Virus record (IMG/VR): IMGVR_UViG_3300048850_000064
Location: 39,743-103,742 of that record
DNA: 64,000 nucleotides
DNA from: a virus
Lineage: Duplodnaviria > Heunggongvirae > Uroviricota > Caudoviricetes
Direction: 5' to 3' (one strand)
Positions 43,866-63,749 of this stretch are shown here, piece by piece. The position numbers and the translations under genes were made by a program. The notes beneath the pieces were generated by a model. It ran no database searches and was not told the DNA's origin. It was given only the letters and a program-made list of their open reading frames with translations. The first letter of the stretch is position 1; the number at the start of each line of letters is the position of its first letter.

Positions 43866-44113
43866 CCCGGCCTGGTAGCAAAAGGCGTGGAACTTTACCT
43901 CTATTACGTGCGTTCCACCGCTGCCGGCAAAACCCCTTGAGCCGGCGCGACGGCATGTCTCTTGCCTGTCGACAGCCGGGAGCGAATGCGCTGACCTCGC
44001 CTGCTGCTCCCGGCACCCGCCGCTCTCAATCCTTCAGTTACCGACCGATCTCCAATCGAGCCATTGCTATAACGCAATCATCGAAAGTAAAGCGCACTGC
44101 GCAGGAGAGATAG

Positions 44114-44359: not shown

Positions 44360-44637
44360 CCGCTTCGGCCTCGAGGCGAAATCGGCTATCCAGGCTCGAA
44401 CGCTGAGAAGGGCCTGACAACGCGCAGCCGGCGGTCGTGTTGGTCATAAACAACACCGGCAGTCAGGGGCACCTGGGTCGTTTCTGCCCAAACGCTGACC
44501 TGGCCCGAGGGGAGTGGGAGGGTGTTGCCGCACCCTCCCCTCGGTTCCCTATAGAGAGCCATGGCGCGGCAATGCCACAATCTTCCACGGATAAATTGTG
44601 CCATCCGTGCCCTGCAGTTACCAACCGAACGCCGTTG

Positions 44638-44653
44638 CAGCCTGTGCGATAAG
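44638..44653 (+). promoter_or_regulatory. Class-2 promoter-like motif CAGCCTGTGCGATAAG
   Basis: Read directly. Confidence 0.4.
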
Positions 44654-45875: not shown

Positions 45876-46845
45876 GCCAGCACCTCTGCCGTGGCGTCTA
45901 CAACAGGTCCACTTCCGGTCAGGCCAGAAAGACCATAGTTTACGCCACGGACAACAGATTTTATCAAGCCACTTGAACCATCAAGTGAATAACCAGCACC
46001 AAGGTTTTCCGCGGGTTTACCTCCCAACACCCGCAAAATCATTTCAGCAAGCGTCAACCCGTCTGACCCTGCAATCAAAACAGCGCTCATTTCGGCCAGG
46101 GAAGCTCCAGGGCTCGATCCGACACTCTCCGACGTAGAACGACGCAGAAAACTCGCAAACGCTCACCAGCGCGCTCCCTAGAGAGAAAACACGAAAGCAA
46201 TAAGGAACGAAGGCCAGTAAGGGCGAATAGATATCCAGAGAGCACCGGACCTATAGAGCCCGACAGCAGCAAGCGCATAAGGGAGCACCACGGTCATAGA
46301 GAGCAACAGAGAGCCCATGGACCTATAGAGCCACGGTTATAACCAATCCGCGAGAAAGGTAATAACGAGAGAGGGGATATGTCAGAGAGGTGTGTCTGCG
46401 CGGGAGGTTCCGCGCCACGCCTCACCCACATCCCGACCCCTCGCCCCTGTCCACCCCTTCCCTCGCCTGACCACGGACACCCTGAAGCTCCCGCCCTTCG
46501 CCTGTTTCATCCCATCGCGAACAAAGCTATACAGAGCATGAGACGAGCGCTTGTGTCCGAAGCAGCTCTTTCCGGCCGATGTCATTGTCCAGCCGGAACT
46601 CTTGGAAGCGTTGCAACCATCCAGGCGGACAATGGGTGCACCTTGGCCGGGCTCCTCGACAGAGGATGCTCGGCTTCTTTTTGGCGATTCCAGGAACCAA
46701 GGCGTATAGAGCCCCAGCGATCGGCCCATGGGTTGAGCCCGTGCCGGACCATGGTCGACCGAGGTGAACCGTGGTCTTTCTGATCGACCGCGGCTGACCA
46801 TGGAGTGCCGGAGATCGTTACGCCTGCGAAACGAAAATCCGGGAG

Positions 46846-46897
46846 CGTTTTCGTATAATACTATCTACTATCTAGGTATCTAACATCTATACGAAAC
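46846..46897. repeat. IR-flanked AT-rich element (CGTTTTCGTATA-N30-TATACGAAAC)
   Basis: Second copy at 61617-61671. Confidence 0.6.
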
Positions 46898-47075
46898 CAA
46901 GGCGAAAAAGAGTCTGGATTAAGACAGGCTCGCCACATTCTCCCTGGCTCATTCTCCGGCACTGACCACCCTTCCCGGCCCTATAGAGAGCCCATGGTTC
47001 ACCATGGCGTGCCGGCCGCGGCTCCCAGCCGTGCCTCGCCTTGCCGGAGCTCCGATTTGCCTGCCCTTGCCGTTC

Positions 47076-47126
47076 GCACGCCACGACAGCCTGTGCGATA
47101 CAGATCATGTCAGCAATGACTGACAG
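47076..47126 (+). promoter_or_regulatory. Class-2 motif GCACGCCACGACAGCCTGTGCGATACA followed by operator palindrome TGTCAGCAATGACTGACA
   Basis: Read directly. Confidence 0.45.
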
Positions 47127-47147
47127 CAACGCTCACGAAGGAGAGAC

Positions 47148-48008
47148 ATGATGAGCAAGCGCAAGATCAAGACCATCGAGCACGCCGTCGAAGTGATCGA
47201 ACAAGACACCGCCCCGGTTCTCGAGGGCGACAGCACCTATCTGACGCTCGAGGACCACAAGGCGATCATGGCCGACTACGAAGAGTTGGCAGCCGCCGAC
47301 GTTGCGACCGTCGCCGCCCTCGAGGCAATCGAAGAGGCTGTTGCCGAGCAGTCCGAGGAAGCGCCGGCCGGTGAGCCGGATCATCAGCCGAGCCTGCTCG
47401 AGCTCGTCGCCTCGGTCGAGCAGGATCCGGAGGATCTCGACACCGCCCGCAAGCAGGTCGCTGCCGCCTTCGACACCCGGGCAGACTTCGAGCGCAAGAA
47501 GAACCCGGACAACGAGTCGATCCAGACGAGCCTGAAGAAGAGCCGGGCGAAGCTGACCCAGGGGCGCTCGGTGGCGATCCTGATGTCGGCGGGTGCCGCA
47601 CCCGACTTCATCACCCGGTCGACGAATGAAGGCTCCGCCTACAACGTCTACGCGGCCGACAAGGTCGCCGACCTCGTCAACGCCTTGAACTCCGGCGTGA
47701 TCGGCAACGCCATCAACAACGCCGTCTGCCGCTCGCTCTTCAGGTTCCGGGCCGCGGGCGAGGCCTTCACCGGCGAGATGGCGCGTGCCGCAGCGTCCGA
47801 CAAGCTGCGTGTCCAGGGCACGATCGCCAAGCTGCTCGTCCGGCACACGGTGTCGCCGTCGACCGCACCGACCCAGGCGTCGTCGACGATGCAGGCACTG
47901 CAGACGCTCGGCATCGTCAAGAACACCGGCACGACGCGCGCCCCGGTCTATGCACTGACCGACAGCCCGGCAGCAAAGCGGCTCGAAGCCGTCGTGATGG
48001 CCGCATAA
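47148..48008 (+). CDS. Hypothetical protein (286 aa)
   Basis: gaaggagag RBS. Confidence 0.55.
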   Translation: MMSKRKIKTIEHAVEVIEQDTAPVLEGDSTYLTLEDHKAIMADYEELAAADVATVAALEAIEEAVAEQSEEAPAGEPDHQPSLLELVASVEQDPEDLDTARKQVAAAFDTRADFERKKNPDNESIQTSLKKSRAKLTQGRSVAILMSAGAAPDFITRSTNEGSAYNVYAADKVADLVNALNSGVIGNAINNAVCRSLFRFRAAGEAFTGEMARAAASDKLRVQGTIAKLLVRHTVSPSTAPTQASSTMQALQTLGIVKNTGTTRAPVYALTDSPAAKRLEAVVMAA

Positions 48009-48294
48009 CAAGAGGAGGATGAAGAAAGAGGCTCGCTTAGGCGGGCCTTTTTCGTGTCTGGCACGGGACCATGGCTTGCCCTGGCGCGGTTGCTAGGAAC
48101 CTTGGGCTTCCGTGGGCTCCGCCGACTGGAACCACGGGCGAGGAACCAAGACAGGCCCACCATAGAAAGCCGGTCCAGGCAGCCCGAGGCGGACCATGGC
48201 TCGCCGGGGCGTCGGGGAAGCCTCGAGATGCCAGCCGAGTGCCGTTCGAGCCTGTGCGACAGTTCTCATGCGTCAAGTGACGAGGAGACGAGAC

Positions 48295-48513: not shown

Positions 48514-48684
48514 CCCAGGAACCAGGCGTGCTCCGGCGCTCCTGGTTGCTCTTCCGGGCGACAGCGACCGTGGCAGACCATGGCGGGCCGCGGCTCCCGC
48601 CTGAAGCGTTGCCTCGAGATGCCACCCGACTGCCTCTGAAGCGCGTGCGATGACAGTGATGCAACGTAAACAAGAGAGAACGAC

Positions 48685-49820: not shown

Positions 49821-50000
49821 ATGAACCAGATCTTCGTTCCGGCAATCGACTTCAGCTCAGCGCGCGAAAGGCGCGCTGCAGCCGAGCGTGCGGCCAAGGT
49901 CAAGCGCCGGCAGTTCATCAAAGAGGTCGTAATCGACATCGTCGGCCTTGGCTGTCTCGCCTGGTGCGCCTACGTCGCGATCGACCTCGCCCTCTTCTAG
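49821..50000 (+). CDS. Small membrane protein
   Basis: ggagag RBS; C-terminal TM. Confidence 0.4.
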   Translation: MNQIFVPAIDFSSARERRAAAERAAKVKRRQFIKEVVIDIVGLGCLAWCAYVAIDLALF

Positions 50001-50167
50001 TCGACCAGGAGCTCGCCGGGGCTAGGAACCGGTGGGCTCCAAGGGAGCCGCCGGGCGGCCGGCAACGCCAGGAACCGACCGCGGCATTTCCAGGAACCGG
50101 CACATCCACGGCTCACCATGGCTCCTACCGCGGCTCCCGCGCCACGCGCGGGCCGCGCGCCTCGCTC

Positions 50168-50212
50168 GTAGTTACGCTTCGCGTGCTCGTCTGCGCTTCA
50201 AAGCGTAACTAC
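50168..50212. repeat. 12-bp inverted repeat GTAGTTACGCTT-N21-AAGCGTAACTAC at left edge of low-GC island
   Basis: Read directly. Confidence 0.6.
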
Positions 50213-50614
50213 ATCTCTAGCGCTCAATACGCGCGCAACATGCGAACGACGTCTATTTCGTCTCGCTTATAAACACGCGCTGTATAGCGCATATTACGAT
50301 TGTCTAAATAAGCAGCGATTTGTGCTTTCGCTTGCTTGCGCGCGCGCTCACGTTCACGCTTGCGTCTGACAGTTTCTGTCACGTCGATCGATGATTTAGA
50401 CATTGCTAAATCTTTCGCGCTGACGTCTGTAATAAGCGCTCATGCGCTTGCGCTTGTCGCGCTCACGCAATGCGCGTCGAAGATCGTTGTTTGCTTTGCG
50501 CGTGTTAAGCAGCGCTGCTTTCAATCTCAGATATATTAGCATGTTCTTGAATCTCGCTTTCGAGTGAAACGAAAGAATGACGCGCTGCAGAGCGCGTCAT
50601 TCATAAGTGACTGA

Positions 50615-51205
50615 TTATTGAGCGTAACGTTCAAGAATCGCTTGTGTCAGTTTCGAGTCTGTATTGAGCGCGTAAACGTCTTTCGTCGACGTTTCGCGCA
50701 AGATATCGAGTGCACACAATGCTTTCAAAGACATCGATGCTTGACGTTTTGCAGCGCTCACGATTGTTTCGCGACGTGAGATATACTTTTCTCTTTCTTT
50801 CGCGACTTCAATCGCTTTGTCTTTCTTGCTTGTGCACGACGCGTAAGCATCGTTGCGCGTCATCGTGAGACTATCACGATGCAGATTGATTGCAGTTTCA
50901 AGCACAGTTCTTGCATTGTCTGTCTTGATATTAGCAACTGCTTTGAAAGCGAACTGCAGATAATCTGCAGTTCTAGCAATCGCTTTCATGCAAAACTTCG
51001 AATTTACATTCTCGTAAGCGTTGATGAATGCAGAGCTCATGTCTTGCTGCGCAAGCAGCGCGACGAATTGTGTGCTCGCATAGACTTGCTTTGCTTTCTT
51101 CAACAGAGCAATTGATGCATCGCATGCAGTTGCTTTCTCTTGCGTCTCGAAAGCGATACGAGTTTCGATAGCAGCGACGAAAGAGTTTACAGTTTCGTTT
51201 GTCAT
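50615..51205 (-). CDS. Hypothetical alpha-helical protein encoded in low-GC island
   Basis: 196 aa minus-strand ORF; local GC ~45% vs ~62% elsewhere. Confidence 0.5.
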   Translation of the reverse strand: MTNETVNSFVAAIETRIAFETQEKATACDASIALLKKAKQVYASTQFVALLAQQDMSSAFINAYENVNSKFCMKAIARTADYLQFAFKAVANIKTDNARTVLETAINLHRDSLTMTRNDAYASCTSKKDKAIEVAKEREKYISRRETIVSAAKRQASMSLKALCALDILRETSTKDVYALNTDSKLTQAILERYAQ

Positions 51206-51783
51206 TGTCTTGTCTCTCTTGTTTAACGTTGACTGTTTTATTGTTGTTTCATTCTGTCATGTCGCGCAAAGCGCAAAGCGCTTGCGTCGAAGATGATCTA
51301 TTCAGTTGTCAAAGAGCGCTGCATTTCTGCAGTGACTCTTTCTTCGCATGTTTCTGTGTGAGTCGTCAAGTGACTTTATGCGCTTGTGACTTAAAATATG
51401 TGCTTTTCTGCGATAGCGTTTAGTTCGCTCATAGAGACGCATAGACGCGCGTTCTTGCTTGTGTGTCGCGAGATACTCACTTGTGCGTCTATCGCGCTCT
51501 ACGCGCTTGTGTGTGCGATTGTGCGTCTATCGCGTCTGTCACTGTCATTGCACGTTGCTTGCTTGTCATCGTCGCGCTGATCGTCGCGCGCTCGACATGA
51601 TCGACGCCCGATCCCTCCTAGAGAATTAGCGAAGTCTTAGAAAATGCGACGTGACGTGATCCGGATGCCGCCTGTCACCCTCGTCTCCCCGGTTCCTATC
51701 CACCTCTGTCTGTGGGCTGCCCAGGAAGGTCCGGATCTTTGCGGTGGATCGACGGATGGTTGGTTGCTTGGTGGTTGATGGTG

Positions 51784-51804
51784 ATCAGTCACTATTGACT
51801 GACT
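51784..51804 (+). promoter_or_regulatory. Operator palindrome ATCAGTCACTATTGACTGACT
   Basis: Read directly. Confidence 0.45.
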
Positions 51805-52016
51805 ACGGTCGCGCCGGCTACATTGGGCGAAATCGTTCTTGCACGAATGGACGAAGGCCCGATGCTCTACTTTACGATCCTGATGTTCTGCCTGCTCGGT
51901 CAGGCGCTGCTCTGCTTCGCTCCGCCCTTCCCTGTCTGCCACTGCCGCTCCTGGCGTGATCTCGTCGACCTCGAACGGATCCGCCGGCTGTTGCGTCGCT
52001 AACCCCTGAGGATCCG

Positions 52017-52253
52017 ATGGCGGAAAATCTGAAACCACCCATGACGGCCGAAGCCTTCGACGAGGCGGCCAACAAGGCTTGCGACGAGATCATCGCGGCG
52101 ATTGCCGCGGCCAAGGCCCGGTTCCAGGAGTTGCTCGAGCCGTTGCTTGACGAGGCCGAGCAGGCAGGCGTCCCGCCGCATCTCATCGCCTCCTCGCTGA
52201 TGGCCGTAGCGCGGCGCCTCAATGAGGCCGGTGAAGTGCTGCAGGCCGGCTGA
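52017..52253 (+). CDS. Hypothetical protein
   Basis: 78 aa. Confidence 0.45.
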   Translation: MAENLKPPMTAEAFDEAANKACDEIIAAIAAAKARFQELLEPLLDEAEQAGVPPHLIASSLMAVARRLNEAGEVLQAG

Positions 52254-53393: not shown

Positions 53394-53648
53394 TCAATCG
53401 TTCTTTCTGGCTTTCTCGCGCTTCCACGCCTCGAAGGCTTGCTCGAGCAGGCCTTTCAGCTTCAGGCCGTTGACCGCGGCCGTCACCTTCATTTCGTGGG
53501 CGAGCTCCGGCGATACCTTGAAATTCAGGTCGACGTATTTCTTCTCGCGGATGTTGTCGGGTGCTGCAGCCGGCTGAATGGTCGGGATTTCGCCCAAGCC
53601 CGTCGCAAAGCCGGCACGGGCGCGAGGTCTGACGGGTGCCTTGGTCAT
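53394..53648 (-). CDS. ParG-like small partition DNA-binding protein
   Basis: 84 aa immediately downstream of parA, overlapping by 4 nt. Confidence 0.45.
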   Translation of the reverse strand: MTKAPVRPRARAGFATGLGEIPTIQPAAAPDNIREKKYVDLNFKVSPELAHEMKVTAAVNGLKLKGLLEQAFEAWKREKARKND

Positions 53649-54301
53649 GCGGGTGTTGCCTCCTGGTCTTCCAGTTCATTTGCGCGGGTGACGATCTCGG
53701 TTGCGAGCGTCTCGGCGCGTTCGTTGAGCGACGGGTGATCGGTCTCGGAGACCGCGGCGCCGATACCCTGAGCGTTGTGATAGCTGGTCTTTACCGGCAG
53801 ATCCGTCTCGGCATAGCGAAAACCGGCCGCGGTGATGAAGTCCTGGGCGTTTCTGAGCGCCGGCGCCGAGCCGATCGTCTGGTTGATGACGAAGAGCAGC
53901 CGGTCGCGCTTGACGCCCTTGGCGACGAGCTCGTTGGCAAACATCACTTGCGGCCGCAGGTCGTCGACCGAGACGCCGGTCGGAATGACGTTGAGGAGCG
54001 CCACCCGGGCCGCTTCCAGCGAGGTCGTGTCGGAATCGGGCTTGCCATCGACGACGATCAGGTCGTGGCTTTCCCGGGCAAGCGCCTTGACCGAGGAGAA
54101 CGGCTCGGCCGCGATCTGCGGCTCGAGGCTGTTGACCATCCGCAGCGCCACCCAGTCGACCGAGGTTTTCTGCTTGGTGTTGAAGTCGGCGATCTTCACC
54201 GACCAGCCGGCAGACGCATAGGTCCGGGCAATGAGCCGGGCGATCGTCGATTTGCCGACGCCGCCCTTTTGCGAGAGACAGGTGATGATGAGCGCGGCCA
54301 T
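53645..54301 (-). CDS. parA: ParA-family partition ATPase
   Basis: Deviant Walker A SQKGGVGKST; ~218 aa type-Ib size. Confidence 0.7.
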   Translation of the reverse strand: MAALIITCLSQKGGVGKSTIARLIARTYASAGWSVKIADFNTKQKTSVDWVALRMVNSLEPQIAAEPFSSVKALARESHDLIVVDGKPDSDTTSLEAARVALLNVIPTGVSVDDLRPQVMFANELVAKGVKRDRLLFVINQTIGSAPALRNAQDFITAAGFRYAETDLPVKTSYHNAQGIGAAVSETDHPSLNERAETLATEIVTRANELEDQEATPA

Positions 54302-54370
54302 AATTCGTTCTTTCGCTAGTTCGTGCGAGCCATATTTCGGGCAAGAACGTAAACGATTCGTTTAGGCAGC

Positions 54371-54398
54371 GCAAAAAAAGAGCCCGTCAGGCGGGCTC
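54371..54398 (-). terminator. Rho-independent terminator (minus strand)
   Basis: GAGCCCG-cctga-CGGGCTC followed by U7 on minus strand. Confidence 0.65.
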
Positions 54399-54950
54399 GA
54401 AACCCTCGAGGTCGAAGAGCATTTCGTATTCGTCGAGGCTGACCTTGATCGTCTTCCAGGTGAAGATGATCGCGTCGTTACGATGGTCGTCCGTCCGCTC
54501 AAAGTCCGGCGAGACGTTGTTCCTGGTGCAGAAGTCGGCGATCCTGCGGAACTCGTCGCCTGACGATTTGAGCTCGAATTTGCTCAGTTCCGCCCTGCGG
54601 ATGAAGGCGGGGCGCATGATCCCGTAATCGTCGCGGATCTCGACCGCTCCTCCGCGCCGGCGGGTCTGACAGTCGAGATAGCCGACCATGCGCTTCTCGA
54701 CCCAGACCTGAACACGCTCTCTCGTGAAGATGTCGATAGGGTAGGGGTCCAGGGGATCGGGCTCCGGCGCGTGCAGAGCTTCGATAGCGTCCTCGAGCAT
54801 CTCCCTGGTAAGGGTGGAACCGCCGATCCTGTCTGCGGTGATGGAGTTGGCAATCATCTTCTCGGCCGAGATTGCCGTCGGCCGCAACATGCCGACGCCG
54901 TGATGCCAGGTCGTGCTCGTCAAGGCACCGAAGGGGTCCGGCTTCGTCAC
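54387..54950 (-). CDS. Hypothetical protein
   Basis: GTGA overlap with upstream gene at 54947-54950. Confidence 0.45.
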   Translation of the reverse strand: MTKPDPFGALTSTTWHHGVGMLRPTAISAEKMIANSITADRIGGSTLTREMLEDAIEALHAPEPDPLDPYPIDIFTRERVQVWVEKRMVGYLDCQTRRRGGAVEIRDDYGIMRPAFIRRAELSKFELKSSGDEFRRIADFCTRNNVSPDFERTDDHRNDAIIFTWKTIKVSLDEYEMLFDLEGFEPA

Positions 54951-55537
54951 AGCGCGATCTCCGTATGATTGCCGATCACCGCGATCAGCTTGTCGGCCAG
55001 GTCGCGCCGGGCCTCTTCCTTCGACAGGCCGCGCGCCAGGCCGTCGTTCTGGATCCGCGCCTGGCAATAGGCGTTGTTGTAGGCGTCGAAGGGATAGATC
55101 GAAGGCGGGGCGAGGGGATTGACGATCTCGATGACGAGCGCGCCGCGGTCGCGCCAGTATTTGCCCTGCTCACGACGCACCGAGCCAAAGACGGAATAGC
55201 TGCCCTTCGGCCGGGCATGATGGCTCATCATCGGGATGACCTCGCCACCGAACTTGTCCTCGAAGGCATTGCCGATCTCACCGAGGATCTCGCGGACCTG
55301 CCACTTGCGGCCGTTGATCTCGACATATTCGAGCTTGCCTTCCTGGGTGAAGACCTGGTGCGCGGTGAGGCCGAGATAGTCCATGGCGATCTTGCGCAGC
55401 GGCAGGCCGTCGTCGGCGAGCTCGTGACCGTAGATCTCGTTGATGATCTCTGCAGCCGTCGACTTGCCGGAGGTCGGATTGCCGCAGAGCGCGATGATCT
55501 TCGGCAGGGTGACGAGCGGGAAGGGGGATGCGTTCAA
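54947..55537 (-). CDS. P-loop dNMP-kinase-like protein
   Basis: Walker A CGNPTSGKST. Confidence 0.5.
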   Translation of the reverse strand: MNASPFPLVTLPKIIALCGNPTSGKSTAAEIINEIYGHELADDGLPLRKIAMDYLGLTAHQVFTQEGKLEYVEINGRKWQVREILGEIGNAFEDKFGGEVIPMMSHHARPKGSYSVFGSVRREQGKYWRDRGALVIEIVNPLAPPSIYPFDAYNNAYCQARIQNDGLARGLSKEEARRDLADKLIAVIGNHTEIAL

Positions 55538-55557
55538 GGGAGCGTCTCCTGTGAGAA

Positions 55558-55584
55558 AGTCAGTAATGACTGACTATATAGCGG
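55558..55584 (-). promoter_or_regulatory. Promoter/operator signature on minus strand (rc CCGCTATATAGTCAGTCATTACTGACT)
   Basis: Read directly. Confidence 0.55.
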
Positions 55585-55612
55585 GCGACGCGAAGTTCGT
55601 CGGGGCAGGGCG

Positions 55613-55822
55613 CTAATTCGCCTTTTCGGGCGATCTTTCTTTCGTGCTTTCGTCCATGACTGCGCGCAGCCGGGTGACTGTCGCCTTCAGCCGGCGCTTG
55701 AGCTCGCGGTTTTCCATGGTCAGCCGATCGACCTCGGCTGCCAGGTGGTCGTTGCTGAGCACGGACTTGCCGCGCGCGTCGAAGAAGTGGACCGGGTCGC
55801 GAAGTCTACTGAAGTGCTTCAA
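55613..55822 (-). CDS. Hypothetical coiled-coil protein
   Basis: 69 aa ORF. Confidence 0.35.
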   Translation of the reverse strand: MKHFSRLRDPVHFFDARGKSVLSNDHLAAEVDRLTMENRELKRRLKATVTRLRAVMDESTKERSPEKAN

Positions 55823-55979
55823 CGGTGACGCCTCGCTCCTTGAGGATCGACTGGACGAGTGCCGCCTGGCGCCGATGCTGCTTGGCCCACTGCGGGTCGT
55901 CGGTGGTCGCGGCCGCCCAGTTCAGCCGGTGGAACTGATGCTTGAGCTCGGTCGTGCTCATCTTGCGGTAACTGCTCAT
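55806..55979 (-). CDS. Small hypothetical protein (57 aa)
   Basis: Hand-translated MSSYRKMSTTELKHQFHRLNWAAATTDDPQW...; ATGA overlap with helicase stop. Confidence 0.35.
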   Translation of the reverse strand: MSSYRKMSTTELKHQFHRLNWAAATTDDPQWAKQHRRQAALVQSILKERGVTVEALQ

Positions 55980-57562
55980 GCTGCTTTCCTTTTCTCGAAG
56001 ATCGACCAGTCGAGCTTGGTGACGATGCCCTCGGCAAAGCCGGGCGTCTGCTCGACGATCAGCCGGCGCGCCTTTGCGTGCTCGGCCAGTTTGACGTTCA
56101 TGTTCACGGAATAATCGATGCAGAAGGAGACGTTCGGCCCGACCTTCTTGGCGCGCAGCACGCGGCCGATGCGCTGGCGGGTCGCGACCTCGGCCTTTCC
56201 ACCGCCGAGCTGCTGCAGGAGCCCGATCGCCGGCACGTCGACGCCGACGTCGAGGATTGAGGTGCCGATGACGACGTCATATTCGCCGGCCGCAAGCTGC
56301 CTAAGCACCTTCTTGCGCTCGTCGTTGTCGTTCTCGCCCTTGAGGAAGATCGCCCGAAGCCCGGCCTTCCTGTAGGCAGCCTCGACCGCGGCGCCGTGCT
56401 CCTTGAGGCGGAGGAGGGCGAGCACCGGCAGCCCGTATTTCTTCGCCATCAGTGCATCGCCGATCGCGTCGGCCAGCATGAACTCGTTCTGCTTGTAGCC
56501 GAGCTCATAGGCGCGCTCCCACGGCGAGGTGCGGTAGAGCTTCGGATGCGGCTTGCAGTCCCGGAACAGGAAATAGGGCTTTGCCAGGATGCCGCGGTCG
56601 ATCAGCATCTTCTCGGAGATCTTGATCAGCACCGGGCCGAAGGCGGCCATCAGCCGCATATTGTCCTCGGCCGAGTCGCGCATGAACGGCGTTGCGGTGA
56701 GCGCGACCCGGATCGTCGCGTTCTTGCAGTGCTTGAGGATCCGGAAGTAGCTGTCGCCACCGGCCTCGTGCGCCTCCTCGCCGATGACGATCTCGATCAT
56801 CTCCAGCACCTTGAGGATCTGGTTTCGCTTTTTCGTCTTTTCGTCGAATCGTTCTTTCGCGATTGCCCGAATCTCGTCCCAGGTGAGATCGGCGCTCTTT
56901 TTCTTGGAGCGATGGATCGACTTGACGACGGCGCGATGCTCGGCCTCGAGGTCCGGCTCCTCGAGGGCTGCGACCAGCGTCTGCACCATGCCGAGATTGA
57001 CGCCCTTCGTCACCTTGAACTCGCCGTCACCGATGATGCCGGTATTGAGCCGCAGCTCGTCGAGCTGATCCTTCATCTGATAGAGCAGCACGCCGCGGGT
57101 GGTCAGAAACAGCGTCATGCGCCGGTAGCGCGCCATCACCAGCTTGGCGATCTTCGACTTTCCGCCACCCGTTGCGACCTGGATGATGCCGCGGCCGTGC
57201 TTTTCGACCTGGCGCAGCGCCCGGACCTGGTAGTCGTAGCGCGGATCGTCGTTGCCGAATTCGTCGACGATCGGGTTTTCCGGCCCGAGCGGGGTTACGT
57301 GCGGCTTGCGGATGAGCTGGACCTGATGGCCGCGGCGCGTCAGCTCCGAATGCACCAGGAAGACGAAGCCGGCCGGAAACGAATGAGTGCGGAACTCGTA
57401 GAAGGACGAGCGGCCGTCCCAGGAGCCGGTGTTGAATGCAAACGAGCGATCGGCGCCGTCGACCATGTAGGAGAGCAGCTCGGAGACGAGGTTCGCGATC
57501 TCCTTGGGCGGATCCATCAGTCTTGCTACGACTGCATTGTGGGCGAGTTTTACCAGTGCCAT
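55976..57562 (-). CDS. Superfamily-2 DEAD/DEAH-box helicase
   Basis: Motif I ATGGGKS, II GEEAHE, helicase C-terminal GRVLR. Confidence 0.65.
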   Translation of the reverse strand: MALVKLAHNAVVARLMDPPKEIANLVSELLSYMVDGADRSFAFNTGSWDGRSSFYEFRTHSFPAGFVFLVHSELTRRGHQVQLIRKPHVTPLGPENPIVDEFGNDDPRYDYQVRALRQVEKHGRGIIQVATGGGKSKIAKLVMARYRRMTLFLTTRGVLLYQMKDQLDELRLNTGIIGDGEFKVTKGVNLGMVQTLVAALEEPDLEAEHRAVVKSIHRSKKKSADLTWDEIRAIAKERFDEKTKKRNQILKVLEMIEIVIGEEAHEAGGDSYFRILKHCKNATIRVALTATPFMRDSAEDNMRLMAAFGPVLIKISEKMLIDRGILAKPYFLFRDCKPHPKLYRTSPWERAYELGYKQNEFMLADAIGDALMAKKYGLPVLALLRLKEHGAAVEAAYRKAGLRAIFLKGENDNDERKKVLRQLAAGEYDVVIGTSILDVGVDVPAIGLLQQLGGGKAEVATRQRIGRVLRAKKVGPNVSFCIDYSVNMNVKLAEHAKARRLIVEQTPGFAEGIVTKLDWSIFEKRKAA

Positions 57563-57616
57563 CGTCTATTCTTGCTTTCGTGCTTTATTGCGGGCCTTGC
57601 CTAGTGCTTCATACGT

Positions 57617-57648
57617 GATATATAGTCAGTCATCAATGACTGACTGAG
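57617..57648. promoter_or_regulatory. Divergent promoter region with palindrome TATATAGTCAGTCATCAATGACTGACTGA
   Basis: Between minus helicase gene and plus 57657 gene. Confidence 0.55.
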
Positions 57649-57656
57649 GATTTACC

Positions 57657-58394
57657 TTGTCGTATCCGAAATACGCGATAGTCGACTCAGGCGAGCTGAC
57701 CCCGCCGCCCTCCAATCCCAACATCATGACGCCCGAGAACGAGGCCAAGCTCGAGGCGTCGATCAAACGCTTCGGCTTCTTCCGCCCGGTGATCGTGCGC
57801 GAGCTGGAGGACAAGCTCGAGATCGTCGGTGGCGAGCATCGCTGGGAGATCGCCCGGCGCCACGGCATGAAGGTGCCGATCATGAATCTCGGGCCGATCT
57901 CCGACCAGGAAGCGCGCGAGATTCTCTTGGCAGACAATGCCCGTTACGGCGTCGACGACACACTGTCGCTCGCCGAATTCCTCAAGGAGATGGGGGATGT
58001 TGCCGTCGACGATCTGCAAGACTTCCTGCCCTATACTGAAACCGATCTCACTGAAATTTTCTCGTCAGTAGATATAGCGCTCGACGATCTGGATATCGCG
58101 GAAAGCTTTGAAAAAGACGAGGAAAAAGACGCCGAACCGCCGGCCGTCAAGGCACCGAAGACCCATACGATCATGCGCTTCAAGGTTGCGCTCGCCGATG
58201 CCGAGCGGCTGACCGAGGTGATCGCCAAGACCCAGAAGCATCACGGCTACACCACGGCCGACGAACTGACCAATGCCGGCGACGCGCTGGTGCACCTGGT
58301 CTTCGGCTCGACCGCCCGGATTGAGCCCGCGGAAGAGCCCGCCTTCGAGCTCGACGACATCGACGAAATCGACCTCGAGGATCTGGGCGAATGA
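57657..58394 (+). CDS. ParB-like nuclease domain protein
   Basis: IVGGEHRWEIARRHG ParB/Srx motif. Confidence 0.55.
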   Translation: MSYPKYAIVDSGELTPPPSNPNIMTPENEAKLEASIKRFGFFRPVIVRELEDKLEIVGGEHRWEIARRHGMKVPIMNLGPISDQEAREILLADNARYGVDDTLSLAEFLKEMGDVAVDDLQDFLPYTETDLTEIFSSVDIALDDLDIAESFEKDEEKDAEPPAVKAPKTHTIMRFKVALADAERLTEVIAKTQKHHGYTTADELTNAGDALVHLVFGSTARIEPAEEPAFELDDIDEIDLEDLGE

Positions 58395-58570
58395 AGCCGA
58401 AATTCGAGGAATGCACCGACTGCCGCTACTTCATCGCCCGAGGCAAGGTCGCCAATCCGGCCTGCGGCGAGTGCGGTAGCGGGCAGTTCTTCGAGGAGCG
58501 CGTTCGCGAGCGCCGGCCCTCCAATGACGAACTCATGACCATTTTTGGGAGAATGCACGATGACGACTGA
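58391..58570 (+). CDS. Zinc-ribbon small protein
   Basis: CTDCRY...CGECG. Confidence 0.4.
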   Translation: MKPKFEECTDCRYFIARGKVANPACGECGSGQFFEERVRERRPSNDELMTIFGRMHDDD

Positions 58571-60471: not shown

Positions 60472-61358
60472 GCATTTCTGATACCGAGACACTCGTCGAA
60501 CGAAACGCGAGCCCACGGGCTCGTTTTTCGCTTGCGGACGAAATGATCGTCGAGCGCGGCACCAAGGCCGACTGGGATCTGCTGCACGATCTCCACTACA
60601 AGGCGGAGAAGCTGCCGCTCGGCCCGCGCTTCTGGCGCCTGTCGCTGCATGGCGAGACGATCGGCGTGCTCGTCACCGGTTGTCCGAAGGGGATGCTGCG
60701 CGAGCGCCACATGATCTTTCCGCGGCTGAAGCCCCAGGGCGGCGAGACCAGGCTCGTCAACACCACCCGCTACCGCTTCATCAACGACAATTTCCGGGTG
60801 ATCAGCCGCTTCGTCATCGACACGATGTATCGCGGCATCGGCGCCGGCTACCGGATGATGAATCTGGTCTCCAGGATCGAGGGTAACACCTACATGGAGA
60901 TCCAGTCGTCGATGTCGAAGTTCAATCTGTTCGGCCAGAAGGCCGGCTTTCGCTTCGCGCCGCCGATGAGCGCCAACAAGTTCGACGCCGGCATGAAGTT
61001 CTTCCGCTCGCACTTTGCGGCCAATCCGCAGGACTACATGGCGCTGGTCGCCGAGATCGAGGCGACGCCCGAGCCCGGCCGCACCAGGCTGATCGACGCC
61101 TGCAGAACCTTCTACCTGAAGAACTCGGCGCTCGAGAACACGGGTGCAACCCGCGACCGGGCCGAGGGCAGGGTGGCAGCGATGACCCCGACCGAGGTGA
61201 TCAAGGGTATCCAGCAGATGGCGCTCGCCTCGCCGATGTATGGCATCTGGAAGTGCCCGGATTTGAAGGGCAGCGTGCCTGAGCGCCTGCCGCTGACCGC
61301 GTTCGACTGGCAGGGCGCCAGCGAGCCGCTGAAACTGCCGGAAGGGTTCGTGTCGTGA
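60468..61358 (+). CDS. Hypothetical protein (296 aa)
   Basis: GTGA/ATGA-coupled to ABC ATPase operon. Confidence 0.5.
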   Translation: MSISDTETLVERNASPRARFSLADEMIVERGTKADWDLLHDLHYKAEKLPLGPRFWRLSLHGETIGVLVTGCPKGMLRERHMIFPRLKPQGGETRLVNTTRYRFINDNFRVISRFVIDTMYRGIGAGYRMMNLVSRIEGNTYMEIQSSMSKFNLFGQKAGFRFAPPMSANKFDAGMKFFRSHFAANPQDYMALVAEIEATPEPGRTRLIDACRTFYLKNSALENTGATRDRAEGRVAAMTPTEVIKGIQQMALASPMYGIWKCPDLKGSVPERLPLTAFDWQGASEPLKLPEGFVS

Positions 61359-61606
61359 ACGCCAGGCTGACCCGGAAACAGCGTGCCATCCTCGAATGCG
61401 TGTTGAAGGCGGCCGACGCCGGCAACTTCTACAACATCCGCGAGCTGCACGCGACGCTGCCCTACGAGAACCACTACGGTTCGTTCCGGTGCAGCATCAA
61501 GTTTCTGGAGAAGCACAGGCTGATCGAAAAGGAACCGGCCGGAAGAAGTTCGCTGATCAAGCCTACTTCTCTTGCCTATGTGTGGCTGAGACGTGCCGGA
61601 GCATGA
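61355..61606 (+). CDS. Hypothetical protein
   Basis: 83 aa. Confidence 0.45.
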   Translation: MNARLTRKQRAILECVLKAADAGNFYNIRELHATLPYENHYGSFRCSIKFLEKHRLIEKEPAGRSSLIKPTSLAYVWLRRAGA

Positions 61607-61616
61607 GATCCGGATC

Positions 61617-61671
61617 CGTTTTTCGTATAGATATTAGATTCTAACTAATAACTATATTTATACGAAAACGC
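61617..61671. repeat. IR-flanked AT-rich element (CCGTTTTTCGTATA-N28-TATACGAAAACG)
   Basis: Paralog of 46846-46897; upstream of terminase genes. Confidence 0.6.
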
Positions 61672-61755
61672 TTCCGGATTTTAGTTCAACCTTGAACATT
61701 CTCCGGCACGAAAAGGCTGCGAGGGTTGAGAATAGGACTTATCCGGTTTAGGATG

Positions 61756-61776
61756 TTAAGTCATTACTGACTGACT
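61756..61776 (+). promoter_or_regulatory. Operator palindrome TTAAGTCATTACTGACTGACT
   Basis: Read directly. Confidence 0.5.
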
Positions 61777-61788: not shown

Positions 61789-62496
61789 ATGAGCGATGAA
61801 ACACTCTCCGGCCCGATTGAAGACGAGGAGCTCGCGGCTCTCGACGACGATGCCGTTGCCGAGGACGACGCCGCCGATCCGGCGCATGAGGCGAAGAAGG
61901 ACAAGCGTCTGACCGAGGCGGAGAAGGCCGAGATTCGCGAACTGTTCGAACTCGGCAAGATGCGCATGGGCGAGCTGGCGACCAAATACGGCGTCACCCG
62001 CCAGGCGCTGTTCAAGTGGTTCAAGAAGGACGGCATCGTCTATGGCTCGCGCGCTCACGAGATCGCCGCGGCCATATCGTCCGGGCTGAAGAAGGCCGAG
62101 GCGACCCATGCCGAGCGCTACGCCGAAAAGCGCATGGAGTGGATCGAGGAGAGTCGCGTCCAGGGCTACAAGGATCTCAAGCAGGCGATCATGATCGTCA
62201 AGAAGACGCTCGCCGACGCGGTAGTCTCCAAGGCGCCGCTGGGCTCGATCGACGACGACCTGAAGGCGCTGACGCGCTATCACCGGATGCTCGAGAACAA
62301 CGCGGCCGCCCGGCTGAAGCTGCTCGATGCCGACAACGTCGTCGACGAAAAGGATCTGCCGAAGCTGCAGATCGAGGATCTGACCGTCGACAAGATCGTC
62401 GAGTTCCACAAGAACAACGGCATCACCGACGAGGAGGAGCTCGACGCGATCATCAATCGGTTCGCCAATCCGCTCGGAGAGGCGCCGGAAGAATGA
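61789..62496 (+). CDS. Terminase small subunit (HTH-containing)
   Basis: Immediately upstream of terL with ATGA overlap; MGELATKYGVTRQALFKWF HTH. Confidence 0.5.
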   Translation: MSDETLSGPIEDEELAALDDDAVAEDDAADPAHEAKKDKRLTEAEKAEIRELFELGKMRMGELATKYGVTRQALFKWFKKDGIVYGSRAHEIAAAISSGLKKAEATHAERYAEKRMEWIEESRVQGYKDLKQAIMIVKKTLADAVVSKAPLGSIDDDLKALTRYHRMLENNAAARLKLLDADNVVDEKDLPKLQIEDLTVDKIVEFHKNNGITDEEELDAIINRFANPLGEAPEE

Positions 62497-63749
62497 CGCT
62501 TTTCCTGCATCCCGGTCAGAAGATGGTGATCCGCGATCCGCGGCGCTTCCGCGTCGTGGTCGCCGGCCGGCGCTGGGGCAAGACCCAGGTGTCGAAGGCC
62601 GCGCTGATCAGGGCTGCCGTCGAGAAGAACAACCAGCTCGTCTGGTATGTGGCGCCGACCTACCAGATGGCCCGCGGCATTCTCTGGGACGACCTGAAGA
62701 ATTCGATCCCGCGCGCCTTCGTCAAGTCGATCCACGAGACGCGCCTGTCCATCCGGCTGATCAACGGCTCGAAGATCGAGCTGAAGGGCGCCGACAAGCC
62801 CGATACGCTGCGCGGCGTCGGTATTCACTTTCTGGTCATCGACGAGGCCCAGGACATCAAGGAAGAGACCTGGACGCTGGTCCTGCGCCCGACGCTGTCG
62901 ACGACGGCCGGCCGGGTGGTCTTCATCGGCACGCCGAAGTCGTTCAACTGGCTCTACGACCGCTATGTCGACGGCCAGCGCGGCGACACCTATCTCGACG
63001 ACAAGGGCAAGCTGCAGGTCAATCCCTGGAAGAGCTGGCAGTTCCCGACCGTCACCTCGCCGTTCATCCCGCCGTCGGAAATCCACCAGGCGCGCCGCGA
63101 CCTCGACCCGAAATCCTTCAAACAGGAATACGAGGCCTCCTTCGAGACGATGGCCGGCCGCGTCTATTACGGCTTCGACCGGCGCACCCATGTCGGCGAC
63201 TATCCGTTCAACCCGCACCTGCCGATCAAGATCGGCATGGACTTCAACATCAACCCGATGTCGGCCGTGGTCATGCAGGAGCAGGCCAATGGCGAGATCT
63301 GGGCGGTCGACGAGATCATCCTGCAGGGCTCGAACACCCAGGAGACGGCCGACGAGATTTCGCGCCGCTACTGGCGCCATATGAACCAGATCACCATCTA
63401 CCCCGACCCGGCCGGCAACAACCGCAACCACGACCGCGGCGAGAGCTCGCTGCAGATCCTGCGCGAGGCCGGCTTCAAGAGGCTGATGTTCCGGCGCAAG
63501 CATCCGGCCGTCGCCGACCGCGTCAACTCGGTCAACCGGCTGCTGATCGACGCCGAGGGCACCATTCGCTTCAAGGTCAACCGGATCTGCAAGCATACGA
63601 TCGAGGCGCTGGAGCAGACGATCTACAAGGAAGGCTCGCGCGAGGTCGACAAGAAGGCCGGCGTCGAACACCCGGCCGACGCGCTCGGCTATTTCGCAGA
63701 ATACGAGCATCCGGTGATCTTGCGGCAGATCGCAGGGGTCTCCATTTAG
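62493..63749 (+). CDS. Terminase large subunit
   Basis: Walker A VVAGRRWGKT, Walker B LVIDEAQD, C-terminal nuclease-like region. Confidence 0.75.
   Translation: MTLFLHPGQKMVIRDPRRFRVVVAGRRWGKTQVSKAALIRAAVEKNNQLVWYVAPTYQMARGILWDDLKNSIPRAFVKSIHETRLSIRLINGSKIELKGADKPDTLRGVGIHFLVIDEAQDIKEETWTLVLRPTLSTTAGRVVFIGTPKSFNWLYDRYVDGQRGDTYLDDKGKLQVNPWKSWQFPTVTSPFIPPSEIHQARRDLDPKSFKQEYEASFETMAGRVYYGFDRRTHVGDYPFNPHLPIKIGMDFNINPMSAVVMQEQANGEIWAVDEIILQGSNTQETADEISRRYWRHMNQITIYPDPAGNNRNHDRGESSLQILREAGFKRLMFRRKHPAVADRVNSVNRLLIDAEGTIRFKVNRICKHTIEALEQTIYKEGSREVDKKAGVEHPADALGYFAEYEHPVILRQIAGVSI

What the first reader, a model, noticed from the sequence alone, without database searches (positions are those of the whole stretch)
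46846..46897. Two paralogous IR-flanked AT-rich elements (GTTTTCGTATA ... TATACGAAAAC): candidate origin, pac or centromere sites
At 46846-46897 and again at 61617-61671 an 11-12 bp inverted repeat (CGTTTTCGTATA / TATACGAAA(A)C) brackets a 28-30 bp, more than 80% AT core. The two cores are different: the first contains TATCTA iterons, the second TAACTAATAACTATA. Both sit in otherwise 62% GC DNA. The second copy lies just upstream of the terminase small and large subunit genes, where pac or cos sites often reside. The first lies in the large non-coding tract. Such architecture is typical of replication origins, packaging sites or plasmid partition sites.
Basis: seen in the sequence. Interest (0 to 1): 0.6.

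Follow-up and report, generated by a model that had tools for sequence, protein, structure and literature searches.

The report
Conserved palindromes marking phage-plasmid module boundaries
The two sites are real, related copies of an AT-centred palindrome that a large family of phage-plasmids (including Yersinia pestis pMT1) keeps just upstream of its DNA-packaging genes and at other gene-module borders; its job is still unproven and appears to be undescribed.

Summary
TTTCGTATA/TATACGAAA occurs four times, only at these two sites (0.06 expected). Site 2 is larger than described: 22-nt arms around a 29-nt, 83% AT core, enclosed by a second stem (GTGCCGGAG/CTCCGGCAC). Site 1 is an inverted, partly degenerate copy (core 70% AT) in a 1.2 kb non-coding tract.

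The window is a RHEph10/SSU5-type siphophage-plasmid. Every relative examined keeps such a palindrome in the same slot, between an ~85-aa winged-helix gene and the terS-like gene, from Rhizobium to Yersinia pMT1, about 800 enterobacterial plasmids and Pseudomonas phage nickie. Arm symmetry is conserved, but arm sequence has diverged to random between lineages.

Complete relatives carry three copies sharing that genome's arm: the non-coding tract (site 1), upstream of terS (site 2), and the end of the virion/lysis module.

Plasmid origin and centromere are disfavoured, because the element ignores replicon and par type. A pac/cos role is unsupported, because B1VFA's published termini lie elsewhere. 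It is not a canonical terminator and matches no Rfam family.

My best reading (about 0.3) is a DNA-level boundary or control site gating the late operon. Lytic origin, terminase recognition site and RNA hairpin remain live rivals.

The parts
61608..61679 (.). Site 2 main palindrome. Left arm ATCCGGAtcCGTTTTTCGTATA (61608-61629), 29-nt 83% AT core (61630-61658), right arm TATACGAAAACGctTCCGGAT (61659-61679). The arms carry a 2x2 internal mismatch and a 1-nt bulge.
61593..61709 (.). Full site 2 unit. The closing stem GTGCCGGAG (61593-61601) / CTCCGGCAC (61701-61709) encloses the main palindrome and a small side hairpin GTTCAACCTTGAAC (61684-61697).
46836..46897 (.). Site 1, an inverted and partly degenerate paralog. 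Full arm AATCCGGGAGCGTTTTCGTATA (46836-46857) matches the reverse complement of site 2's right arm. The 30-nt core is 70% AT with 3 x TATCTA (46858-46887). On the right only the inner stem TATACGAAAC survives (46888-46897).
46804..46963 (.). Full site 1 unit. A perfect 11-bp closing stem AGTGCCGGAGA (46804-46814) / TCTCCGGCACT (46953-46963) has the same sequence as the site 2 closing stem.
45976..47147 (.). Conserved non-coding tract that holds site 1. It carries CTATAGAG-type repeats and CCATGG..GTGCCGG repeats. Homologous tracts exist in Y2_11, p5, B1VFA, pLM21S1 and nickie, with lineage-specific iterons at the 5' end.
61355..61606 (+). 83-aa winged-helix protein gene (PHROG 900). It is orthologous in all lineages and always lies immediately upstream of site 2.
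61726..61776 (+). Sigma-70-like promoter candidate (TTGAGA-17-TAGGAT, 61726-61754) followed by a copy of the dispersed palindrome AGTCAnnnnTGACT (61758-61776). Both lie between site 2 and terS.
61789..62496 (+). terS-like HTH protein gene (PHROG 867). It is the first gene of the packaging/late module.
62493..63749 (+). Terminase large subunit gene (Terminase_6N/6C).
47060..48008 (+). Downstream of site 1: a copy of the 41-nt promoter-like repeat (47060-47100), a dispersed-palindrome copy (47108-47121) and a conserved 286-aa gene (47148-48008).

Best explanation
Sites 1 and 2 are two copies of a conserved AT-centred palindrome that marks the borders between gene modules in RHEph10/SSU5-type siphophage-plasmids. 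Complete relatives carry three copies.

Site 2 is the master copy. It lies between the stop codon of a conserved small winged-helix gene and the promoter of the terS-terL-head-tail-lysis module. Site 1 is a partial copy in a conserved non-coding tract about 15 kb upstream. The third copy, outside this window, closes the late module.

Proposed mechanism: these are DNA-level boundary or control sites. The two GC-rich arms form a symmetric target, either for a dimeric factor or as an extruded cruciform. They flank an easily bent or melted AT-rich centre, which in most lineages contains the genome's general operator-like palindrome. When occupied, the site insulates one module from read-through out of the previous one and gates firing of the next promoter, above all entry into the late packaging operon.

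Shown: the anatomy, the positional conservation, the symmetry with sequence turnover, the three-site layout, and the sharing of arms within a genome. Inferred: that the sites act on DNA rather than RNA, that a protein binds them, and that the output is transcriptional gating.
For: 1. The slot is conserved. A palindrome with an AT centre lies between the winged-helix gene and the terS-like gene in the window; in Rhizobium phages of three groups; in Pararhizobium, Sinorhizobium, Shinella and Methylobacterium plasmids; in pMT1 and an E. coli plasmid; in about 800 enterobacterial plasmids; and in Pseudomonas phage nickie.
2. Survey: 43 of 113 loci have a strict gapless AT-centred palindrome in the 1.1 kb slot upstream of terL, against 0.007 per 1.1 kb elsewhere in the same loci. 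No locus with TerL below about 50% identity has one.
3. In 17 lineages the left arm and the reverse complement of the right arm agree at a median of 17-18 of 20 positions. Arm similarity between lineages is 0.39, against 0.36 for shuffled arms.
4. Transition mismatches show no strand bias: 28 G.T against 22 A.C. This fits selection on symmetric DNA rather than on one RNA strand.
5. Y2_11, B1VFA and an E. coli SSU5-like plasmid each have three copies: in the non-coding tract, upstream of terS, and at the end of the virion/lysis module. All share that genome's arm, with exact runs of 12-20 nt.
6. Arms at sites 1 and 2 are unchanged between diverged genome pairs (Y2_11/p5, B1VFA/pLM21S1) while the cores differ.
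7. The centre carries the dispersed operator-like palindrome in group C and pLM21S1, Shinella, L016/L019/L060 and the enterics.
8. A sigma-70-like promoter plus a dispersed palindrome lie between site 2 and terS.
9. The adjacent protein gives weak winged-helix matches (BlaI, LexA and MarR types).
Against: - No binding protein is identified.
- The winged-helix recognition helix is nearly constant (R-x-S-I-K-F-L) although the arms have randomised. That protein can therefore read at most the more conserved outer stem, TTCCnGTCC.
- Core length varies from 21 to more than 45 bp between lineages, which is awkward for a single dimer bridging both arms.
- Multi-tier stems with asymmetric spacers and side hairpins look more like folded single strands.
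- Several copies are followed by T-runs: E. coli sites 1 and 3, and window site 2.
- The folds are somewhat more stable on the + strand in 19 of 26 elements.
- An AT centre flanked by inverted sites fits an origin or a cosB-type site equally well.
Confidence: 0.3

Rival explanations
1. RNA-level element. The palindromes are transcribed within long co-directional operons and act as hairpins. They could be processing or stability sites (RNase III type, like the T7 R-sites at gene borders), factor-dependent terminators or attenuators ahead of the late operon, or partners in antisense pairing between copies (as in P1/P7 c4 or P4 CI).
For: Very stable folds: z = -9.4 for site 2, -6.6 for Y2_11 and -3.9 for the site 1 unit. 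Stems of 20-25 bp carry internal loops, closing stems and side hairpins. The sites lie at operon borders in genomes whose genes almost all lie on one strand. The + strand fold is more stable in 19 of 26 elements. T-runs follow E. coli sites 1 and 3 and window site 2. Complete arm turnover with kept pairing is what structure-only selection predicts. Because site 2 holds both arm senses, a single arm at sites 1 or 3 can always pair with it.
Against: There is no G.U over A.C excess: 28 against 22. Most lineages have no U-tract, although the same genomes use canonical terminators elsewhere. Window site 1 is inverted relative to site 2. In groups C and E, sites 1 and 3 keep one exact arm but only a weak hairpin. 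There is no Rfam match. A 30-45 nt, strongly AT-rich centre is unusual for a hairpin loop.
Confidence: 0.22
2. Lytic replication origins. Inverted initiator-binding arms flank an AT-rich unwinding element, in several paralogous copies per genome. The architecture resembles herpes simplex oriS/oriL or lambda ori (iterons, AT tract, palindrome). It could alternatively work as a T4-style promoter-plus-unwinding-element origin.
For: The AT-rich centre is conserved in composition but not in sequence inside 58-63% GC genomes, and is flanked by inverted arms. Multiple paralogs share arms. The element follows the conserved phage replication core, not the plasmid replicon. Site 1 lies in a non-coding tract with lineage-specific iterons: ATGTTGACAG x6 in Y2_11 and CCTTTACA x6 in B1VFA. 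The third copy lies just before the DnaB/primase module. The genomes encode UvsW-like, RecA-like and SSB proteins.
Against: No initiator is identified. The iterons lie about 800 bp from site 1. The constant placement between the winged-helix gene and terS has no replication rationale. Cumulative skew is uninformative. A conserved initiator could not follow randomised arms.
Confidence: 0.18
3. Terminase recognition site (pac, or cosB-like). Inverted TerS-binding elements flank a bendable AT spacer immediately upstream of terS, as in lambda cosB R3-I1-R2. The extra copies would be secondary or synapsis sites.
For: Site 2 lies directly upstream of the terS-like HTH gene in every lineage. The architecture matches the lambda cosB and P1 pac layouts (my own knowledge, not tested here). 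Lineage-specific arms would fit packaging specificity.
Against: B1VFA is reported to have fixed ends and a 3,605-bp terminal repeat at the record ends, 40-54 kb from its copies, and V1VFA-S is similar (PMC12509600). No arm copy occurs near those ends. Conserved half-copies at two other module borders are not expected for pac. The centre carries an operator-like palindrome. Caveat: the reported repeat boundary falls inside a gene, and I could not re-check it.
Confidence: 0.15
4. Plasmid maintenance site: a centromere (parS/parC) or the vegetative plasmid origin of the prophage-plasmid.
For: The family encodes ParA, ParB-like proteins and RepC and exists as plasmids (PMC12509600; PMC4447125). 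The IHF-type architecture of P1 parS looks similar (my own knowledge, not tested here).
Against: The same element in the same slot occurs with RepC plus a short ParA (Rhizobiales), with RepA/IncFIB (pMT1, E. coli), and in phage nickie, whose fetched regions (27.8 of 112 kb) list no rep or par gene. None of the copies is adjacent to parA or repC.
Confidence: 0.03
5. Selfish or neutral repeat (a MITE, REP or ERIC-like palindromic element), or a chance inverted repeat.
For: The copies are short palindromic repeats in intergenic DNA that share arms within a genome.
Against: The position is orthologous from Pseudomonas and Yersinia to Rhizobium, with in-place turnover of sequence. There are only 2-3 copies per genome. 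Enrichment is about 50-fold over the rest of the loci. Chance expectation is 0.06.
Confidence: 0.02

Closest known systems
Lambda cosB (R3-I1-R2) and related terminase recognition sites (P1 pac, SPP1 pacL/pacR)
   Same: Inverted recognition elements flank an AT-rich, bendable spacer and lie immediately upstream of the small-terminase gene. Specificity differs between related phages.
   Different: Here the arms are 18-25 bp and have fully randomised between lineages. Two further copies sit at other module borders. The centre holds an operator-like palindrome. The only published ends for a relative map elsewhere. No binding has been tested.
AT-centred palindromic origins (herpes simplex oriS/oriL; lambda ori with iterons, AT tract and palindrome)
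   Same: An AT-rich centre is flanked by inverted arms. There are several paralogous copies per genome. One copy lies in an iteron-bearing non-coding tract.
   Different: No initiator is known. The iterons are about 800 bp away. There is no replication evidence. The placement before terS is strictly conserved.
T7 RNase III processing sites (R0.3 to R18.5)
   Same: Paralogous hairpins with internal loops lie at gene or module borders of long co-directional transcription units. Position is conserved while sequence drifts.
   Different: There is no G.U strand bias. The centres are long and AT-rich. One window copy is inverted. Some copies keep a single arm only. No RNA data exist.
Late-operon activator sites and gene order (RinA/LtrC/ArpU upstream of terS; Mu C and P2 Ogr dyad sites)
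   Same: A small DNA-binding protein gene lies directly upstream of terS, with a dyad-symmetric site and the late promoter between them. A few copies per genome sit at operon heads.
   Different: Known sites are 15-30 bp with fixed spacing to the promoter. Here the sites span 70-115 bp at variable distance (about 50-190 nt) from terS. The protein is unrelated to those families.
P1 parS and REP-IHF-REP (RIP/BIME) elements
   Same: Inverted motifs flank an AT-rich IHF-type centre.
   Different: The element is independent of the par system, there is no IHF consensus in the core, and it is not dispersed in host genomes.

Membership tests
pac/cos packaging site | Virion DNA ends, or the start of the headful series, map at or next to the site | not testable with these tools
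   No reads are available here. PMC12509600 reports B1VFA ends far from its copies. The boundary of that repeat falls inside a gene, so the report needs checking.
pac/cos packaging site | Located in or next to the small-terminase gene | tested here: met
   Site 2 lies about 110 nt upstream of the terS-like gene. The slot is the same in all relatives.
pac/cos packaging site | Bound by the small terminase | not testable with these tools
   Needs EMSA or footprinting with the 235-aa terS-like protein.
Replication origin (iteron or unwinding-element type) | AT-rich unwinding element next to repeated initiator sites | tested here: inconclusive
   An AT core flanked by inverted arms is present. The iterons of the tract are about 800 bp away and are clear only in relatives.
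Replication origin (iteron or unwinding-element type) | Linked to an initiator gene or replicon type | tested here: not met
   RepC and RepA genes lie elsewhere, and the element is kept across replicon types. A phage lytic initiator is not excluded.
Replication origin (iteron or unwinding-element type) | Strand-composition switch at the site | tested here: inconclusive
   Cumulative GC skew is monotonic in Y2_11 and B1VFA and is dominated by transcription direction.
Plasmid centromere (parS/parC) | Co-occurs and co-varies with a given ParA/ParB system, usually next to it | tested here: not met
   The element is present with a short ParA (Rhizobiales), in IncFIB enterobacterial plasmids, and in phage nickie. 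It is never adjacent to parA.
Intrinsic (Rho-independent) terminator | GC-rich hairpin with a short loop followed directly by a U-tract | tested here: not met
   The loop or centre is 21-45 nt or longer. A T-run follows only window site 2, E. coli sites 1 and 3, and L058. Most lineages have none, and the same genomes have canonical terminators elsewhere.
Any described RNA family (Rfam 15) | Match to a covariance model | tested here: not met
   No hit at gathering score in the window. There is no relevant hit at E <= 5 around either site.
MITE / REP / ERIC-type repeat | Many dispersed, non-syntenic copies | tested here: not met
   There are 2 copies in the window, and 3 arm-bearing sites in Y2_11, B1VFA and one E. 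coli plasmid (which has one further 15-nt half-site), always at syntenic positions.
Protein-bound dyad operator | Symmetric half-sites conserved together with a cognate DNA-binding protein | tested here: inconclusive
   Symmetry is strongly conserved. However, the adjacent winged-helix protein's recognition helix barely changes while the arms randomise.

The most novel reading that the evidence does not exclude
The three palindromes form one nucleic-acid-addressed switch. Site 2 contains both senses of a lineage-specific arm of about 20 nt, while sites 1 and 3 keep at least one exact arm. Transcripts or extruded strands from one site could therefore pair with another across 15-70 kb. That pairing would couple the state of the maintenance, late and replication modules. 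It would explain why the arms can randomise between lineages yet stay identical within a genome without any protein having to change specificity. This would be a long-range, genome-wide analogue of the P1/P7 c4 and P4 CI antisense immunity systems, present in hundreds of clinical phage-plasmids (pMT1, pHCM2-type and Klebsiella pKpn-type).
Probability: 0.08. Interest if true: 0.85.

Novelty: new variant of a known kind. Interest (0 to 1): 0.55.

Why it matters
The SSU5 supergroup is the largest known set of phage-plasmids. It includes Y. pestis pMT1, S. Typhi pHCM2-type plasmids and many Klebsiella and E. coli plasmids that carry cargo genes. How these elements keep about 30 kb of virion genes silent as plasmids, start lytic replication and choose DNA for packaging is essentially unknown.

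A cis element kept at the head of the packaging operon and at the other module borders, with arms specific to each lineage, is an obvious handle on those questions. It gives defined sites to delete, swap or probe. It may also be the specificity determinant that keeps co-resident relatives from interfering with one another.

If it turns out to be only a regulator site or a terminase site, it is a useful but ordinary annotation.

Tried and rejected
- Rfam at gathering score on the whole window, and at E <= 5 around both sites: nothing relevant.
- MAFFT plus RNAalifold on 14 site 2 sequences: the arms are too diverged to align, and no consensus came out. I used per-element symmetry statistics instead.
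- Cumulative GC/AT skew of the complete Y2_11 and B1VFA genomes: monotonic and uninformative for origins.
- Exact-pattern scans for the window's own arms (TTTCGTATA N24-36 TATACGAAA) in viral and metagenome contigs: 40 and at least 120 hits, but none encodes a relative, so these are chance matches. No close relative of the window lineage (TerL above 75%) was found in any collection.
- The search for related loci with the terS-like protein alone in viral contigs: no relatives.
- PDB sequence searches with the winged-helix and terS-like proteins: only weak winged-helix hits. Pfam gave sub-threshold BlaI/LexA/MarR-type hits.
- Search for paralogs of the winged-helix gene next to sites 1 or 3: none.
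- Literature searches for SSU5 or RHEph10 termini, inverted repeats or packaging: nothing describes this element.
- Idea that sites 1 and 2 are the borders of a T5-like long terminal repeat of about 15 kb: dropped, because the published repeat is 3.6 kb and lies elsewhere, and a third copy exists.
- Idea that the sites flank an invertible segment: dropped, because the segment has the same orientation in all genomes examined.

Full report
**1. What is in the window**

TTTCGTATA and its complement occur exactly four times in 64 kb. They form two inverted repeats, at 46849-46896 and 61621-61667. Chance expectation is 0.06, and 0 of 100 shuffles reached four.

It reads ATCCGGAtcCGTTTTTCGTATA, then a 29-nt core of 83% AT, then TATACGAAAACGctTCCGGAT, spanning 61608-61679. 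A second stem, GTGCCGGAG (61593-61601) with CTCCGGCAC (61701-61709), encloses this palindrome together with a small side hairpin. As a single strand, the 136-nt unit folds at -58.3 kcal/mol against -26 for shuffles, z = -9.4.

Site 1 is an inverted, partial copy. Its left arm (46836-46857) equals the reverse complement of site 2's right arm with one mismatch in 21. Its 30-nt core is only 70% AT and holds three TATCTA repeats. On the right, only the inner stem survives. It has the same closing stem as site 2, a perfect 11 bp at 46804-46814 and 46953-46963. The 171-nt unit folds with z = -3.9.

**2. Genomic setting**

Site 2 lies between the stop codon of an 83-aa gene (61355-61606) and a terS-like HTH gene (61789-62496), which is followed by terL (62493-63749; Terminase_6N/6C). 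Between site 2 and terS there is a sigma-70-like promoter candidate at 61726-61754 and a copy of a dispersed palindrome. Site 1 lies in an ORF-poor tract (about 45976-47147) upstream of a conserved 286-aa gene.

**3. What the window is**

The nearest relatives are the 115-122 kb Rhizobium siphophages RHEph10, RHph_Y2_11, N1_10, X66, B1VFA and V1VFA-S, at about 75-79% nucleotide identity over parts of the region. Also related are 115-119 kb plasmids of Pararhizobium, Sinorhizobium (pLM21S1), Shinella, Methylobacterium and R. beringeri. The published descriptions treat these as phage-plasmids carrying parA, parB and repC (PMC12509600; PMC4447125). The terS-like and terL proteins link the group to the enterobacterial SSU5 supergroup (pMT1 and others) and to Pseudomonas phage nickie. 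No close relative of the window's own lineage was found in any collection.

**4. Conservation of site 2**

Every relative examined has an inverted repeat with an AT-rich centre in the same slot, between the small gene and terS. The arms are completely different from lineage to lineage. Examples:

- TTCCGGTCCGTCTCCCTTC in Y2_11, N1_10, RHEph10 and Pararhizobium p5.
- ATTCCCGTCCATTCACTGTC in X66, B1VFA, V1VFA-S and pLM21S1.
- Other arms again in Shinella, Methylobacterium, Ancylobacter, Faunimonas, Methylocystis, Paracoccus, Acinetobacter and a betaproteobacterium.
- GAGAGCCTGCTTCCGTATATAT in Kluyvera, Yersinia pMT1 and E. coli, and in about 800 enterobacterial plasmid records.
- A weaker version in phage nickie.

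In a strict gapless survey, 43 of 113 loci carry such a palindrome in the 1.1 kb slot upstream of terL. The rate elsewhere in the same loci is 0.007 per 1.1 kb (5 hits in 798 kb). No locus with TerL below about 50% identity has one. Several known positives with bulges are missed, so 43 is a lower bound.

In 17 independent lineages the two arms agree at a median of 17-18 of 20 positions. Arm similarity between lineages is 0.39, indistinguishable from the shuffled control at 0.36. Symmetry is therefore under selection, while arm sequence is not conserved between lineages.

**5. More than two copies**

In the complete Y2_11 genome, the two longest AT islands flanked by inverted repeats are the counterparts of sites 1 and 2. 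An arm search then finds a third copy at record position 52,008-52,082. It lies right after the lysis genes, and its right arm overlaps the start of the 'A1' gene.

B1VFA has the same three copies. One is in the non-coding tract (record about 40,060), one upstream of terS (54,300), and one after the late module (84,120-84,194). The last of these carries an exact 20 of 20 arm copy.

An E. coli SSU5-type plasmid also has three, all close to full palindromes. They lie after the dam methylase gene, upstream of terS, and before the DnaB/primase module.

Pararhizobium p5, pLM21S1 and the Methylobacterium plasmid have site 1 counterparts with exact arm runs of 12-17 nt. pMT1 shows no second copy within 20 kb either side.

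The three copies divide the genome into arcs:

- about 14-15 kb holding tRNAs, peptidase genes, parA, a helicase, two ParB-like genes and the winged-helix gene;
- about 29-30 kb running from terS to lysis;
- about 72 kb of replication and nucleotide-metabolism genes.

In the Rhizobiales only site 2 is a full palindrome. Sites 1 and 3 keep one exact arm, an AT core and a degenerate second arm. The exact arm lies to the left of the core in some groups and to the right in others.

Arms are unchanged between diverged genome pairs (Y2_11 and p5; B1VFA and pLM21S1) while the cores differ. They are, however, only one of several conserved blocks in the site 1 tract.

The window should hold only sites 1 and 2, because the third copy would lie beyond its end.

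**6. What the evidence excludes or weakens**

- **Plasmid origin and centromere.** The element keeps its slot in lineages with RepC and a short ParA, in lineages with RepA/IncFIB, and in phage nickie. It is never adjacent to parA or rep genes.
- **Canonical terminator.** The centre is 21-45 nt or longer. Most lineages lack a U-tract, although the same genomes use textbook terminators elsewhere. A few copies do have T-runs.
- **Described RNA families.** There is no Rfam match.
- **One-strand RNA selection.** Transition mismatches are 28 G.T against 22 A.C, so there is no bias. Even so, the + strand fold is somewhat more stable in 19 of 26 elements.
- **pac/cos.** The position upstream of terS and the cosB-like layout fit. 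The only published end-mapping, however, puts B1VFA's fixed ends and its 3.6 kb terminal repeat at the record ends, 40-54 kb from its copies. No arm copy lies near those ends. That report cannot be verified here, and the repeat boundary falls inside a gene.
- **Mobile or neutral repeat.** Syntenic conservation across bacterial orders and only 2-3 copies per genome argue against it.

**7. Candidate partners**

The small upstream gene is orthologous in all lineages. It gives weak winged-helix matches of the BlaI, LexA and MarR types. Its putative recognition helix is almost invariant (R-x-S-I-K-F-L), while the arms have randomised. It could therefore read at most the more conserved outer stem, TTCCnGTCC in the Rhizobiales.

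In most lineages the AT centre contains the genome's dispersed operator-like palindrome. This is TAAGTAAG-n4-CTTACTTA in group C, and TAAGTACTTA in the enterics, where the site centres read TAAGTnACTTA. In the window that dispersed palindrome (AGTCA-n4-TGACT, about 22 places against 0.15 expected) is not inside the cores. Instead it follows each site, at 47108 and 61759.

A further motif, CT(C/T)CCGG(C)AC, follows each site in groups A, B and C.

**8. Interpretation**

The facts that need explaining are these:

- strict symmetry with free arm sequence;
- an AT-rich centre;
- three copies at module borders that share arms within a genome;
- a constant slot between a DNA-binding gene and terS;
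- independence from the plasmid functions.

I rank the readings as follows.

- **DNA-level boundary or control site that gates the late operon: about 0.30.** It accounts for the module-border positions, the nested operator-like centre, the absence of strand bias and the gene order. That order resembles late activators encoded just upstream of terS in other phages (my own knowledge, not tested here).
- **RNA hairpin for processing, attenuation or antisense pairing: about 0.22.**
- **Lytic origins: about 0.18.**
- **Terminase recognition site: about 0.15.**

None of these is excluded by computation. The step from anatomy to function is inference throughout.

**9. Novelty**

I found no description of this element in the searchable literature. 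In architecture it resembles known cis elements such as cosB, AT-centred origins, dyad operators and RNase III sites. The combination is not matched by any system I know: three syntenic copies at module borders, arms that randomise between lineages but stay identical within a genome, and conservation across the whole SSU5 supergroup. I therefore class it as a new variant of a known kind, of moderate interest, and directly testable.

Noticed in passing
window, about 22 places, e.g. 5866, 11995, 14785, 17974, 18045, 24204, 27441, 33556, 37147, 37606, 47108, 51787, 55558, 57628, 61759, 63761: A dispersed palindrome AGTCA-n4-TGACT gives 32 strand-matches against 0.15 expected. The copies I placed (47108, 55558, 57628, 61759, 63761) lie just upstream of gene starts or at gene ends. 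Relatives have lineage-specific versions: TCAATCAATATTGATTGA in Y2_11 and p5, TAAGTAAG-n4-CTTACTTA in B1VFA and pLM21S1, and TAAGTACTTA in the enterics. It looks like the operator set of a global regulator, comparable to the dispersed C1 operators of P1.
   Followed up: partly
window 44031-44071, 44611-44651, 47060-47100, 48221-48261, 48612-48652: Five copies of a 41-nt repeat ending in GCCTGTGCGATA (68-100% identity). The 47060 copy lies just upstream of a + strand gene (47148). They look like a family of similar promoters in the region around site 1.
   Followed up: no
window 45976-47147; L001 6907-8140; L009 18842-20334; L071 393-1486: A conserved 1.1-1.5 kb non-coding tract carries (C)ATAGAG repeats and a repeated 6-bp palindrome that changes with lineage: CCATGG in the window and Y2_11, CCTAGG in B1VFA, CCGCGG in nickie. 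Lineage-specific iterons sit at its 5' end: ATGTTGACAG x6 in Y2_11 and CCTTTACA x6 in B1VFA. Its function is unknown. It could be an origin, a regulatory hub or a non-coding RNA.
   Followed up: partly
window 46950-46962 and 61697-61709; relatives L009 about 20105 and 34345, L073 about 14200: The motif CT(C/T)CCGG(C)AC follows each palindrome copy 10-55 nt downstream in groups A, B and C. Unlike the arms, its sequence is conserved between lineages. In the window it also forms the closing stem.
   Followed up: partly
window 50000-52000: GC content drops to 52% (against 61% for the window) and the AT skew reverses. The region holds a minus-strand ORF (50615-51205) and AT-rich repeats (50880-50969). 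It may be a foreign insertion or a divergent regulatory region.
   Followed up: no
L014 1-3605 and L072 (B1VFA record ends): A 3,605-bp terminal repeat placed at either end of the B1VFA record, as published, would have its inner boundary inside an annotated gene: the rIIB-like gene at 2913-4475, or the small gene at 118653-118871. The published termini may need re-examination.
   Followed up: partly
L075 40664-40678 (E. coli plasmid p1919D62-2): A 15-nt copy of the palindrome arm with 1 mismatch lies inside a cobT-like coding sequence. I estimate the chance expectation at about 0.01. It may be a fourth half-site in the enterobacterial lineage.
   Followed up: no
L001 8075-8115; L009 20270-20310; L011 about 4415-4445: A conserved 5'-leader hairpin, TCGAAAG-n9-10-CTTTCGA, lies in front of the gene downstream of site 1 in groups B and C. 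It is absent from the window.
   Followed up: no
window 53600-61400 and all relatives: A conserved operon lies upstream of site 2: a divergently transcribed UvsW-like helicase, two ParB/Srx-domain proteins, two ABC-ATPase-like proteins, small ORFs and the winged-helix gene. It is kept from Pseudomonas and Yersinia to Rhizobium. It is the most conserved DNA in the region (75-79% nucleotide identity), and its function is unknown.
   Followed up: no
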